25,625 nt of DNA from a virus (taxonomy: Duplodnaviria; Heunggongvirae; Uroviricota; Caudoviricetes): IMG/VR virus record IMGVR_UViG_2531839476_000020; one strand, given 5' to 3'. How positions within the stretch are numbered: position 1 is the stretch's first letter; every line of letters starts with the position of its first letter. The position numbers were made by a program, and so were the translations under genes. Positions 11,133-17,721 of the stretch are shown here, piece after piece. The notes under the pieces are model-generated. The model was not told where the DNA came from and did no database searches. It saw only the letters and a program-made list of their open reading frames with translations.

Positions 11133-11158
11133 GCCCACTCTTAAGTGGGCTTTTTTTT
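11133..11158 (+). terminator. intrinsic terminator after the cI-like gene
   Basis: GCCCACT-CTTA-AGTGGGC hairpin followed by TTTTTTTT. Confidence 0.6.
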
Positions 11159-11179
11159 GGGAAAAAATCGATAAACCGA

Positions 11180-11208
11180 TTGACAGGTGAAATCGGTAAA
11201 CCTATTAT
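11180..11208 (+). promoter_or_regulatory. PL-like sigma70 promoter with flanking operator-type inverted repeat
   Basis: TTGACA (11180-11185), 17-nt spacer, TATTAT (11203-11208). ACCGAT ... ATCGGT arms bracket the -35 and share the CCGAT/ATCGG motif with the operator at 10368-10389. Confidence 0.55.
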
Positions 11209-12233: not shown

Positions 12234-12593
12234 ATGACACATGAACCCATTAATACATATCGTCGCCGTATAGCTGTTGCGGCACTCCATCGAATAAAAC
12301 GTAAAACAGGTGGTAATCTGCTTATTGTTGACCTTCCTGATGGGAACATTACGACCATAGAAATAACTGAACAGTTTATAAACCAGTTGCTGTTACGCTT
12401 CGAAGGTATTACCCGTGGTGAATTGGGCCGGGTGGAGGGTGAAACCGAAATCCACACTGCATACCAGAATGCTATCGGGATTAATCAACATACTGAATAC
12501 CTGACTGAAACCGGAAAGTTAATTATAGACAACCTTTTTCAAGAGATTATTGATTACGCGAAAGAAAAATATATCAGCGGAGGAATTAACTGA
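12234..12593 (+). CDS. hypothetical protein (119 aa)
   Basis: ORF coupled (ATGA overlap) to the downstream gene. Confidence 0.5.
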   Translation: MTHEPINTYRRRIAVAALHRIKRKTGGNLLIVDLPDGNITTIEITEQFINQLLLRFEGITRGELGRVEGETEIHTAYQNAIGINQHTEYLTETGKLIIDNLFQEIIDYAKEKYISGGIN

Positions 12594-13447: not shown

Positions 13448-13636
13448 ATGAACATTTATTTCAGAATAGTTATATCACTGGCAATTATCACATGTATTTA
13501 CGGATTAATCGTTCCGGCCCTCATATCAATGAAGGATACGGTAGCAGTGATTTCTGGCTTTGCTCTGGCGTGTCTGACCCCGCCCTGCATTTATGCCATT
13601 TATAAGGGTCTTTCTTTTTCTAAGGATAAAAGATGA
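13448..13636 (+). CDS. small two-helix membrane protein (62 aa), coupled to the SPFH lipoprotein gene
   Basis: RBS AGGAGG; two hydrophobic segments (IVISLAIITCIYGLIVPALI and VISGFALACLTPPCIYAIY); stop overlaps the next start (ATGA). Confidence 0.55.
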   Translation: MNIYFRIVISLAIITCIYGLIVPALISMKDTVAVISGFALACLTPPCIYAIYKGLSFSKDKR

Positions 13637-14460
13637 AAAAATTACTTTTTGCTTTAGCCCTTGTTCTGCCGACCATTGGCCTTGTCGGTTGCGATCGCGT
13701 TGAGCCTGGTAATGTGGGCATCAAAGTAAACAAACTGGGCGACGATAAAGGCGTCGGTGAAGTGGTCGGTGTTGGGCGCTACTGGACGGGATGGAACACT
13801 GAGGTTTACATCTTCCCGACCTTTAAGCAGATGAAGACCTACGATGATCCATTCAGTTTCCAGATGAGTGACGGTACAACCATCGGCTATCACATCGGCG
13901 TGGCCTACAAAGTTGATCCATCCAAAGTTACCACAGTCTTTCAGACCTACCGCAAAGGCGTGGACGACATTACCGACACCGACCTGCGCCAGAAGATAGC
14001 CGACGCACTCAACCGACTGGCCAGCAAAATGACCACCGACAAATTTATCGACGGCGGCAAGTCTGAGCTGCTGGATGCAGCTCTTAAAGACATTCAGGAA
14101 GAAATGACGCCCATCGGTATTCAGGTAATGAGCCTCTCATATGTGGGTAAGCCGGAGTACCCACCTACTGTTATCGACAGCATTAATGCCAAAGTCACGG
14201 CGAACCAGAAAACCCTGCAACGCGAGCAGGAAGTAAAACAGCGCGAAGCGGAAGCCAACATGTTGCGCGCGGAAGCTGCCGGACAGGCAGATGCGATTCG
14301 CACAAAAGCCCAGGCCGAAGCCGATGCTATTCGTTTACGCGGTGAAGCTCTGCGCCAGAACCCCGGTGTTATGGAGCTGGAAGCCATCAACAAGTGGAAC
14401 GGTACACTGCCGCAATACATGACCAGCGGTGCCAACACACCATTTATTCAGGTTAAGTAA
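13633..14460 (+). CDS. SPFH/band-7 (prohibitin-like) domain lipoprotein
   Basis: Lipoprotein signal MKKLLFALALVLPTIGLVGC (lipobox LVGC); SPFH-like core and an Ala/Glu/Arg-rich coiled-coil tail QREQEVKQREAEANMLRAEAAGQADAIRTKAQAEADAIRLRGEALRQ. Confidence 0.75.
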   Translation: MKKLLFALALVLPTIGLVGCDRVEPGNVGIKVNKLGDDKGVGEVVGVGRYWTGWNTEVYIFPTFKQMKTYDDPFSFQMSDGTTIGYHIGVAYKVDPSKVTTVFQTYRKGVDDITDTDLRQKIADALNRLASKMTTDKFIDGGKSELLDAALKDIQEEMTPIGIQVMSLSYVGKPEYPPTVIDSINAKVTANQKTLQREQEVKQREAEANMLRAEAAGQADAIRTKAQAEADAIRLRGEALRQNPGVMELEAINKWNGTLPQYMTSGANTPFIQVK

Positions 14461-14503: not shown

Positions 14504-15253
14504 ATGAATATTGTAACCATCAACAACAAACAGTTTCCGGTAATCGAATATCGCGGTCAGCGTGTTGTGACATTTGCAATAATTGATGACGTCCACCAGC
14601 GCCCGGAAGGTACCGCCCGTGCTGCGTTTAACCGCAACCGTTCTCACTTTATCGAAGGGGTGGATTTTCTTGAAATGACTGCGGACGTAATACGTACGGA
14701 GTCACTTTCTGATGCCTTTGCCGCGCGAACTGCCAAAGGGATCATTCTTTTCGAGTCTGGTTACCTGATGTTGACGAAGCCTTTTAACGATGCTCTTGCA
14801 TGGCAGGTTCAGCGCGAACTGGTTAACAGCTATTTCCGAACTCACGCGCCGCTGACGGAAATGGAGATGATCGCTGCAATGGCCGCCGATGCCGTTCGCC
14901 AGCAGAAGCGCCTGAGTCATGTTGAAGAGAAGATCGAAACGGTCACCAAAGCTGTGGAGAACATCAAACGCGGCACAATGCGCACCGGATATGTCGGTTA
15001 CCGCCAGGTGGTAGCCAAAAGCGGAATGAGTGACGCCAAGTGTCGGAATCTGGTCAACGCCTACCACATCCCTACCGACACGCACGAATTTATGACTCCG
15101 GACGGTCTGTTGTCTCGCAGGGCTGTCGTCGAGCTTGAGACATTTATGGCGGCGTTCCACCAAATGATGTCAGAGGCTGAACCACGCGGCACACGCTGGT
15201 ATCACCCGAAGATGGGGCTTTTTCAGGTAATCGGATGGGAGGATAAAGCATGA
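14504..15253 (+). CDS. ORF6N/KilA-N domain protein (antirepressor-like)
   Basis: Start at MNIVTINNKQFPVIEYRGQRVVTFAIIDDVH (RBS GGAG); N-terminal domain typical of phage ORF6N/KilA-N DNA-binding modules. Confidence 0.65.
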   Translation: MNIVTINNKQFPVIEYRGQRVVTFAIIDDVHQRPEGTARAAFNRNRSHFIEGVDFLEMTADVIRTESLSDAFAARTAKGIILFESGYLMLTKPFNDALAWQVQRELVNSYFRTHAPLTEMEMIAAMAADAVRQQKRLSHVEEKIETVTKAVENIKRGTMRTGYVGYRQVVAKSGMSDAKCRNLVNAYHIPTDTHEFMTPDGLLSRRAVVELETFMAAFHQMMSEAEPRGTRWYHPKMGLFQVIGWEDKA

Positions 15254-15818
15254 TCATCCAGTCAAAACTTATTCGCGCCGCTCTGGTGTGCGCTGCTAAA
15301 AACGACGTTCGTTATTACCTGAACGGTCTTCACATCACGCCAAAACATATTGAGGCAACCAATGGTTTCGTAGCACTGCGCATGACTCACGGCATCCGGA
15401 CGAAGAAAAACATCATTGTCCAGTTCGAAGGTGGCGTCCCGGCCAAAGCCGAAACGACAGAGCTGATTTTTAGTAAAGAGCCGATCCTGTTCATCGCGAC
15501 CAGTTTCAGCGCCGGCTGTCCATTACCGGCATTAAATTGGTGGACGGTTGTTTTCCGGATTTGGAACGCATCATTCCGAAAAAATTTGACCTCTGTACAC
15601 ACCCGGTGATCCAGGCGGGTTACCTGAGTTATCCAGAGAAGATGTTTGGTCGTGAGCGTAAATTTATTCCCGTCCAGTTACGTTCCTCCGGTGACGGGCA
15701 AGCGGTCAGAATTCAGTTTGATTCCATCATCAACTCAATGTATGGCAATCCTGAATTTGTTGTGATGCCTTGTCGTGATCATGGCGATTTCAATGTGGCT
15801 CAGGAGCATCCGGAATGA
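15250..15818 (+). CDS. DnaN (beta sliding clamp) domain II-III-like protein, apparently split by a 1-nt frameshift near 15505-15512
   Basis: NDVRYYLNGLHI...ATNGFVALRM parallels DnaN QDVRYYLNGMLFE...TDGHRLA. The second frame ITGIKLVDGCFPDLERIIPKK parallels FTSKLVDGRFPDYRRVLPK, and the C-terminal EFVVMPCR parallels AYVVMPMR. Junction is at GCCGGCTGTCC. Confidence 0.5.
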
Positions 15819-17697: not shown

Positions 17698-17721
17698 ACC
17701 CGGCAAATGCCGGGTCTTTTT
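17698..17721. terminator. bidirectional intrinsic terminator between convergent int and cargo genes
   Basis: CCCGGC-AAAT-GCCGGG hairpin flanked by AAAAAA upstream and TCTTTTT downstream. Confidence 0.65.

What the first reader, a model, noticed from the sequence alone, without database searches (positions are those of the whole stretch)
15250..15818. Phage-encoded fragment resembling beta sliding clamp (DnaN) domains II-III
A ~190-aa product (after correcting one frameshift) aligns by eye with three separate DnaN segments: DVRYYLNG, KLVDG-FPD and VVMP-R. A clamp-like protein only two domains long could mimic or poison the host clamp or recruit host polymerase. I do not recall this as a standard lambdoid gene.
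Basis: partly seen in the sequence, partly recalled or inferred. Interest (0 to 1): 0.55.

Follow-up and report, generated by a model that had tools for sequence, protein, structure and literature searches.

The report
Broken phage half-clamp (DnaN-like) gene
This is a frameshift-inactivated prophage copy of a widespread but untested phage protein family: a cut-down bacterial DNA sliding clamp that keeps the pocket where polymerases dock and has lost the parts that make the ring.

The parts
15238..15242 (+). Shine-Dalgarno GGAGG, 7 nt before the ATG at 15250
   Evidence: Read directly from the sequence.
15250..15486 (+). 5' part of the clamp-like pseudogene in the native frame (codons 1-79). 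It is equivalent to the first part of DnaN domain II and includes DVRYYLNG (15304-15327) and ATNGF (15355-15369).
   Evidence: ORF list, alignment to the intact allele, phmmer/hhalign to DnaN 136 onward.
15486..15487 (+). Site of the 1-nt deletion: a G is missing between these two bases (ATC[G]CT). This is the inactivating frameshift.
   Evidence: Alignment with L002:12051-12620. The same 569-nt length occurs only in E110019 among 60 E. coli genomes.
15489..15818 (+). 3' part of the pseudogene in the shifted frame (codons 81-189 plus stop). It covers the end of domain II, the linker with KLVDGCFPD (15534-15560), Tyr125 (15621-15623) and the half-domain-III unit ending in VVMPCR (15759-15776).
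   Evidence: The C-terminal unit aligns to DnaN 317-365.
15607..15609 (+). Premature stop of the frame actually translated from ATG 15250. The product is 119 aa, of which only the first 79 are native.
15579..15584 (+). A6 run inside the gene, where a different frameshift variant (P0041) arose.
   Evidence: The P0041 sequence diverges exactly here.
14504..15253 (+). Upstream gene for an ORF6N-domain, anti-repressor-like protein. Its stop codon overlaps the clamp-like start (ATGA).
   Evidence: Pfam ORF6N 1.6e-12, PHROG anti-repressor 6.8e-70, RefSeq annotation.
11180..11208 (+). Strong sigma-70-like promoter (TTGACA-17-TATTAT, 11/12) that probably drives the + strand early operon containing the gene.
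   Evidence: This is a consensus match only.
17698..17715 (+). Terminator-like hairpin after the integrase gene, the probable end of the same operon.
   Evidence: This is a consensus match only.

Best explanation
Window 15250-15818 is a pseudogenised copy of a phage 'short beta clamp'. The intact 189-aa protein consists of DnaN domain II plus the half of domain III that lies against domain II, and it keeps the hydrophobic pocket where clamp-binding motifs (QLxLF-type peptides of Pol III alpha, delta, Hda, Pol II/IV/V, MutS/L and others) dock. It has lost domain I and the distal half of domain III, so it cannot close a ring through the canonical interfaces. The most likely mechanism is a small, basic, non-ring protein made early in the lytic cycle that binds a clamp-binding motif. 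It would either compete with the host clamp for its clients (decoy) or couple such a client to phage DNA or a phage protein (adaptor). Shown here: homology, fold, domain content, conservation of the pocket residues, purifying selection, gene context and the frameshift. Inferred: that the pocket binds peptides, which partner it binds, and what the effect on the cell is. In this window a 1-nt deletion leaves only 79 native residues, so no functional protein is expected.
Against: No binding was tested, and I could not run a multimer prediction. The pocket residues are also the most conserved residues in DnaN and they anchor the alignment, so part of the enrichment is expected for any true homologue. 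Some pocket positions differ or vary (R176->V, L177->A/L, V344 not conserved, M364->C/M). No partner with a convincing clamp-binding motif was found in this window or in a Dhillonvirus genome. The basic pI points to DNA binding, which a pure decoy would not need. Lambdoid phages depend on host Pol III, so indiscriminate titration would hurt the phage itself.
Confidence: 0.55

Rival explanations
1. It is a loader-independent DNA tether, working like herpesvirus UL42. The basic half-clamp binds duplex DNA directly and uses the pocket to hold a polymerase (the phage Pol A in lytic phages, a host polymerase in lambdoid phages), raising processivity without a ring. This overlaps with the best explanation, because it also needs the pocket, but it differs in purpose.
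Against: This prophage and the temperate phages show no polymerase gene in the DNA examined. The Dhillonvirus polymerase and all its ORFs lack a QLxLF-type motif. The second inner helix of domain II is shortened in the enterobacterial proteins. In lytic phages the gene sits alone inside the head module, not with the replication genes.
Confidence: 0.2
2. It is a ring poison. The fragment would pair with a host DnaN monomer in place of the second subunit and give an open, non-functional clamp.
For: It is a true DnaN homologue from a phage of the same host.
Against: The dimer interface of DnaN is made by domain I (I78, F106, R103) and the distal half of domain III (I272, L273, E298, E304) (PMC11139829). 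All of these fall in the parts that the family lacks.
Confidence: 0.05
3. The frameshift is an assembly or sequencing error, and the gene is intact and functional in the real genome.
For: Compared with the finished E110019 chromosome, the window has three other single-base deletions (5809, 7591, 11150), which suggests some indel noise in one of the two records.
Against: The deletion is not in a homopolymer (GATC|CTG). It is present in both the window and the finished chromosome, which differ elsewhere and in IS content, so they are separate records. Other genes of the prophage are also broken.
Confidence: 0.1
4. It is a RusA-like Holliday junction resolvase, as many GenBank phage records and the PHROG 3007 label say.
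For: PHROG 3007 matches at E 5.8e-65 and carries that label. Many phage records copy the label.
Against: No RusA family appears in a Pfam scan even at E<=10. The only Pfam hit is the DnaN central domain. The fold and profile searches find only clamps. The label looks like an annotation error.
Confidence: 0.01

Closest known systems
Bacterial beta sliding clamp DnaN (TIGR00663; Pfam PF00712/PF02767/PF02768; e.g. PDB 1MMI)
   Same: Same fold and clear common ancestry. Domain II, the II-III linker and the C-terminal strand and tail are retained. The residues of the clamp-binding-motif pocket are conserved.
   Different: Half the size (189 aa against 366). It lacks domain I and the distal half of domain III, and with them all dimer-interface residues. 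It is basic rather than acidic. Its scores are far below the family cut-offs (19.1 against 137.65 bits for TIGR00663, 17.4 against 27 bits for PF02767). It cannot be a ring-forming processivity clamp of the usual kind.
Short phage polIII-beta homologues (Kazlauskas & Venclovas 2011, PMC3201878; Bcep43 gp15 'DNA Pol III b subunit fragment'; PHROG 3007; PGAP 'beta clamp domain-containing protein')
   Same: This is the family the gene belongs to. PHROG 3007 matches at E 5.8e-65 over residues 1-179. Bcep43 gp15, Dhillonvirus, IME207 and Vibrio X29 homologues were found by tblastn. The RefSeq name for the intact E. coli orthologue is given.
   Different: The 2011 survey described these proteins as covering 'the second and third domains'. 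Here the third domain is only half present. The window copy is frameshifted. No function has been reported for any member in the literature I could search.
Monomeric E. coli beta (I272A/L273A)
   Same: It is a non-ring clamp derivative that still binds partners through the pocket. Delta binds it about 50 times more tightly than it binds the dimer, and it still binds DNA (PMC11139829). This shows that a pocket without a ring can be a strong ligand trap.
   Different: It is an engineered full-length three-domain protein, not a natural 1.5-domain one.
Herpesvirus UL42/UL44-type non-ring processivity factors
   Different: They have two full domains, are eukaryotic viral proteins and have a known polymerase partner. 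No partner is known here, and this prophage has no polymerase gene in the window.
Phage proteins that act on the host clamp or its clients (Twort Gp168 bound to the clamp, PDB 7EVP; phage Mu MuC with a clamp-binding motif, PMC12867686)
   Same: These phages target the same hub of the host replisome.
   Different: Those proteins bind the clamp. This one would imitate the clamp's binding site instead, so the logic is the reverse.

Membership tests
Beta sliding clamp DnaN (TIGR00663 equivalog) | Whole-protein score above the curated cut-off (137.65 bits) | tested here: not met
   19.1 bits, E 5e-4, residues 6-113 only.
Beta sliding clamp DnaN | Three clamp-fold domains (N-terminal, central, C-terminal), about 366 aa | tested here: not met
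   189 aa. The family aligns to DnaN 137-366 with DnaN ~259-311 missing, and there is no counterpart of residues 1-136.
Beta sliding clamp DnaN | Head-to-tail dimer interface (I78, F106, R103 with I272, L273, E298, E304) that closes the ring | tested here: not met
   All of these residues fall in the absent regions. The residue list is from PMC11139829.
Beta sliding clamp DnaN | Clamp fold (beta-alpha-beta-beta-beta units) | tested here: met
Beta sliding clamp DnaN | Conserved peptide-binding pocket (subsites I and II) | tested here: met
   Met at sequence level only. All 18 positions align, 8 of the 10 most conserved family columns are pocket residues, p = 2e-6. Actual binding is not testable with these tools.
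Pfam PF02767 DNA_pol3_beta_2 (central domain) | Score above the gathering threshold (27 bits) | tested here: not met
   17.4 bits, E 0.0054, for the single sequence. One distant member (P0064) carries a precomputed PF02767 hit.
Short phage beta-clamp homologues (PHROG 3007; PGAP 'beta clamp domain-containing protein') | Full-length match to the family profile, length about 170-215 aa | tested here: met
   PHROG 3007 at E 5.8e-65, residues 1-179 matching profile positions 3-188 of 190. The intact orthologue WP_000586690.1 carries that name in RefSeq. The top 150 relatives are almost all 170-215 aa, apart from a few shorter fragments and one 265-aa protein.
Short phage beta-clamp homologues | Uninterrupted reading frame | tested here: not met
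   A 1-nt deletion after 15486 gives a 119-aa product with 79 native residues. The window copy is a pseudogene of the family.
RusA Holliday junction resolvase | RusA fold or Pfam RusA domain | tested here: not met
   No such hit at E<=10. All fold hits are clamps.
Known anti-phage defence systems (PADLOC) | Match to a defence-system protein model | tested here: not met
   No hit for the protein or its four upstream neighbours (ORF6N, SPFH and the two hypothetical proteins). The fifth, an HTH protein, has only generic HTH hits.
UL42-like non-ring processivity factor (functional class) | Basic DNA-binding surface plus a dedicated polymerase partner | tested here: inconclusive
   The basic pI is met. 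No polymerase gene is present in this window, and no motif-bearing partner was found. DNA binding is not testable here.

The most novel reading that the evidence does not exclude
Phages of many kinds carry a natural 'pocket-only' derivative of the host sliding clamp. It would be a monomeric, non-ring module that mimics the clamp's docking site to capture proteins bearing clamp-binding motifs (for example delta, Hda, translesion polymerases, mismatch-repair proteins or clamp-dependent nucleases). This would rewire or disarm host DNA transactions during infection. It would be molecular mimicry of a hub's binding site rather than inhibition of the hub.
Probability: 0.35. Interest if true: 0.7.

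Novelty: new member of a known kind. Interest (0 to 1): 0.35.

Why it matters
For this window it matters little. The copy is a dead gene in a decaying prophage, and RefSeq already flags it as frameshifted. The family behind it deserves attention. It is large, conserved under purifying selection and spread across temperate and lytic phages of Proteobacteria, it is often mislabelled as a resolvase, and it has no experimental study that I could find. What it retains is precisely the part of the clamp that antibiotics such as griselimycin and many host proteins target. If it binds clamp-binding motifs, it would be a new way for phages to interfere with the host replisome hub. It would also be a ready-made minimal scaffold for studying or screening pocket ligands. 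The hypothesis can be tested directly with a peptide-binding assay on the intact E. coli orthologue.

Tried and rejected
1. Megablast of the region against 50,697 phage records found nothing. The relatives there are only about 30% identical and needed tblastn.
I used the 82%-identical orthologue P0001 instead.
3. The genome-contig scan mostly returned genuine dnaN genes, because the chosen pattern (FPDxxRVIP) is shared with them. I reused those genes to build a DnaN profile.
4. Programmed frameshifting was considered. A -1 slip at A-AAA-AAT (15579-15585) would rejoin the native frame, but residues 80-110, including KLVDGxFPD, would still be out of frame. Intact alleles need no slip. Rejected.
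5. Partner search. The upstream anti-repressor-like protein ends in ...HPKMGLFQ, which resembles the delta motif AMSLF. The tail motif HPx[MFV]GxF recurs upstream in most of the 80 prophage loci. However, the BRO-N version reads EFGGF, and the motif lies at the end of a homologous C-terminal region of about 80 aa, so it is probably structural. I kept it only as a weak lead.
6. Motif scans for QLxLF/QLxLxF in the window and in a Dhillonvirus genome gave only chance-level hits.
7. A homo-oligomeric ring (four copies of three units each) was considered and rejected on topology. The two halves of a clamp domain are related by a radial two-fold axis, so a lone second half cannot stand in for a first half. 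This is inference, not a test.
8. PADLOC and Rfam gave no hits.
9. The RusA label was rejected.

Full report
**What is in the sequence**

Window 15250-15818 (+) holds a single gene split into two reading frames. ATG 15250 is preceded by GGAGG at 15238-15242 and overlaps the stop codon of the upstream gene (ATGA). Frame 1 runs for 119 codons to a stop at 15607-15609. A second frame carries on to TGA 15816-15818.

Megablast against 5,426 complete E. coli genomes found the gene in 60 of them. The finished chromosome of E. coli E110019 is 100% identical over the region, and PGAP annotates the gene there as a frameshifted pseudogene. In strain JNEC-KY202 the same gene is an intact 570-nt ORF, WP_000586690.1, named 'beta clamp domain-containing protein'. 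Aligning the two shows one missing G between window 15486 and 15487 (GATC-CTG against GATCGCTG) and five substitutions.

Among the 60 genomes, 58 have the 570-nt length. Only E110019 has 569, and one strain has 571. The deletion is not in a homopolymer. It is shared by the window and the finished chromosome, which differ from each other by 9 substitutions, 3 single-base indels and an IS3 insertion. I therefore take it as a real mutation, with about 10% left for sequencing error. The product of the window copy keeps only 79 native residues.

**Is it related to DnaN?**

Yes. They are 8/8, 8/9 and 5/6 identical to E. coli DnaN 150-157, 235-243 and 360-365.

- Single-sequence searches are marginal: Pfam PF02767 E 0.005 (below threshold), TIGR00663 E 5e-4, PDB beta clamps E 0.002-0.003.
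- Profiles are decisive. An HMM of 46 family members against all PDB sequences returns 40 hits, all beta clamps, best E 3.6e-15.
- hhalign of the family against E. coli DnaN alone gives 98.3% probability and E 2e-14.
- hhalign of 249 family members against a profile of 76 true DnaN proteins gives 99.75% probability and E 3.3e-27.
- An AlphaFold2 model of an 82%-identical orthologue has mean pLDDT 91.9 and pTM 0.87.
- Foldseek agrees, with the E. coli clamp as best hit (E 2e-7, TM 0.60).

**Architecture**

The family aligns to DnaN 137-366 with one large gap, DnaN ~259-311. There is no counterpart of domain I.

The C-terminal 60-residue unit, taken alone, matches DnaN 317-365 (E 1.5e-5). It matches 245-312 much less well (E 0.11). 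HMMER's local alignment instead runs on into 250-295, which is expected because the two halves of a clamp domain are internal repeats. The family consensus GFNxxY near the start of the unit (present in distant members, degenerate in this enterobacterial gene, which keeps only the Tyr) and the VVMPxR ending both match the second half.

The protein is therefore domain II plus the second beta-alpha-beta-beta-beta unit of domain III. From the known clamp topology, this is the half that packs against domain II. This last point is my inference from established structures. In the enterobacterial proteins the second inner helix of domain II is also shortened.

**What is kept and what is lost**

The beta-clamp review PMC11139829 lists the peptide-binding pocket as two subsites:

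- Subsite I: R152, L155, T172, G174, H175, R176, L177, P242, R246, V247, V360, M362.
- Subsite II: H175, N320, Y323, V344, M362, P363, M364, R365.

It lists I78, F106, I272 and L273, plus R103, E298 and E304, as dimer-interface residues.

In a 70%-non-redundant set of 155 family members, all 18 pocket positions have an aligned counterpart. The five most conserved columns of the whole family are pocket positions carrying the DnaN residue (R21=R152, G39=G174, P103=P242, L24=L155, M173=M362). Eight of the top ten are pocket positions. Pocket columns have much lower entropy than the rest (median 1.12 against 2.88 bits, Mann-Whitney p = 2e-6). Every interface residue falls in a deleted part.

One caveat applies. 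These are also DnaN's own best-conserved residues and they anchor the alignment, so some enrichment is expected for any true homologue. Even so, the family has kept surface residues whose known role in DnaN is ligand binding and has discarded everything needed to make a ring.

**Is the family real and functional?**

- An exhaustive profile search of 1.84 billion cluster representatives gives 7,642 hits at E<=1e-3 and 1,230 at E<=1e-10. Nearly all of the best 150 are 170-215 aa. The weaker tail presumably includes true DnaN.
- Among 65 distinct intact alleles from enterobacterial prophages, dN/dS is 0.089.
- BFVD holds many viral homologues of 160-250 aa with TM 0.64-0.78.
- tblastn finds the family in 221 of 50,697 phage records: Salmonella, Escherichia, Klebsiella, Vibrio, Burkholderia and others.
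- The family is basic. Median pI is 8.8 and the restored window protein is 9.08, against 5.25 for DnaN and 5.56 for the equivalent DnaN segments.

**Context**

In the window the gene lies in a long + strand operon. The operon runs from a strong promoter-like site (11180-11208), just after the LexA-like repressor gene, to a terminator after the integrase (17698-17715). The genes in order are:

- an HTH protein
- small hypothetical proteins
- a ParE-like protein
- an SPFH protein
- an ORF6N-domain anti-repressor-like protein
- the clamp-like gene
- a 40-aa peptide
- a DUF4222 protein
- integrase

. This is the early-left operon of a lambdoid prophage, so the protein would be made after induction, not in the lysogen.

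In more distant temperate phages the gene follows replication genes (a Phg_2220_C initiator plus a DnaC-like loader, or DnaB) and precedes nin genes. In Vibrio phage X29 it sits among exonuclease, Dam and SSB genes. In lytic phages (Dhillonvirus TheodorHerzl, Bcep43, IME207) it is a lone opposite-strand gene inside the head module. TheodorHerzl has its own Pol I gene. This prophage shows none in the window.

There is no PADLOC hit for the protein or its four upstream neighbours (the HTH protein further upstream has only generic HTH hits), and no Rfam hit.

**Mechanism**

The best-supported reading is a non-ring, pocket-bearing module that binds clamp-binding motifs. It could compete with the host clamp for its clients, or couple one of them to phage DNA or to a phage protein. 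There is precedent that a pocket without a ring can be a strong trap: the monomeric I272A/L273A clamp binds delta about 50 times more tightly than the dimer does (PMC11139829).

The basic charge suggests direct DNA binding. That fits the UL42-like 'tether' variant put forward for other viral clamps by Kazlauskas and Venclovas (PMC3201878). The two variants share the pocket and are not exclusive.

I found no partner. Motif scans gave chance-level hits. The KMGLF tail of the upstream protein is conserved but looks like part of a folded domain shared by ORF6N- and BRO-N-type anti-repressors.

**Comparison with what is known**

PGAP now names the E. coli protein.

PHROG 3007, which the protein matches at E 5.8e-65, is labelled 'RusA-like Holliday junction resolvase', and this label has spread into many GenBank records. 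Nothing supports it.

Five literature searches found no experimental work on the family. The library lacks most subscription journals, so this is not proof of absence.

**Verdict**

The object is an already-annotated, frameshifted member of a known but uncharacterised phage family, inside a prophage with several other broken genes.

What I add is:

- the more precise architecture (domain II plus the pocket half of domain III)
- the finding that the pocket is the conserved feature while the ring interfaces are gone
- the basic charge and the purifying selection
- the exposure of the resolvase mislabel

Interest is modest for this locus (0.35) and higher for the family if the pocket-mimic idea holds.

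Noticed in passing
window 14504-15253 (+): The upstream ORF6N-domain anti-repressor-like gene overlaps the clamp-like start (ATGA) and ends ...RWYHPKMGLFQVIGWEDKA. A tail motif HPx[MFV]GxF recurs in the upstream gene of most of 80 related prophage loci, whether the N-terminus is ORF6N or BRO-N. KMGLF resembles the delta-subunit clamp-binding motif AMSLF, but the BRO-N version (EFGGF) does not, and the motif closes a homologous C-terminal region of about 80 aa.
   Followed up: partly
window 5809, 7591, 11150: Relative to the finished E110019 chromosome, the window has three extra single-base deletions. One lies in the already frameshifted Q antiterminator. One lies in the toprim/primase gene (window ORF 6703-7485 is 260 aa against 322 aa). 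One lies in the T-run of the terminator after the repressor gene. This is either more decay or indel noise in one of the records.
   Followed up: partly
window ~15990 (L001:16834-18047): E110019 carries a 1.3-kb IS3-family element here that the window lacks. Sequence beyond window 19217 also differs from E110019. The window is therefore a closely related but not identical prophage record.
   Followed up: partly
window 15579-15584: An A6 run inside the gene is the site of a different frameshift variant, P0041 (119 aa, 64 member sequences on 25 contigs). Public assemblies hold at least six further variants frameshifted at other positions (P0047, P0050, P0051, P0056, P0058, P0060). The Fels-1 copy is split into STM0896 and STM0896.2n. 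This may be recurrent inactivation or assembly noise. It was not quantified against neighbouring genes.
   Followed up: partly
PHROG 3007; GenBank phage records such as NC_031924.1 gp47 and NC_005342.2 gp15: The family is widely labelled 'RusA-like Holliday junction resolvase' although it has a clamp fold and no RusA signal. This appears to be an annotation error that has spread through phage annotation pipelines.
   Followed up: yes
L167:7971-8489 (Dhillonvirus TheodorHerzl), L168:6998-7579 (Bcep43), L003:5989-6528 (IME207): In lytic phages the homologue sits on the opposite strand inside the head or structural gene block. It stands alone in Dhillonvirus and Bcep43, and with a few small genes and a ParB-like gene in IME207. 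It looks like an independently transcribed insert.
   Followed up: partly
window 12234-12593 (+): A 119-aa protein of unknown function (PHROG 1737) in the same operon contains QLLLRF, a literal match to the hexameric clamp-binding consensus QLxLxF. By a rough estimate, about two such matches are expected by chance in a window of this size, so it is not significant as it stands.
   Followed up: no
window 11133-11208 (+): A terminator-like hairpin (11133-11150) directly after the LexA-like repressor gene is followed by a near-consensus promoter (TTGACA-17-TATTAT, 11180-11208). Together they look like the pL-equivalent control point of the early operon.
   Followed up: no
window 13633-14460 (+) and the ParE-like gene upstream (L001:13581-13799): The early operon also carries an SPFH/Band-7 membrane protein with a lipoprotein-like signal sequence and a ParE-family toxin-like gene with no obvious antitoxin annotated next to it.
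   Followed up: no
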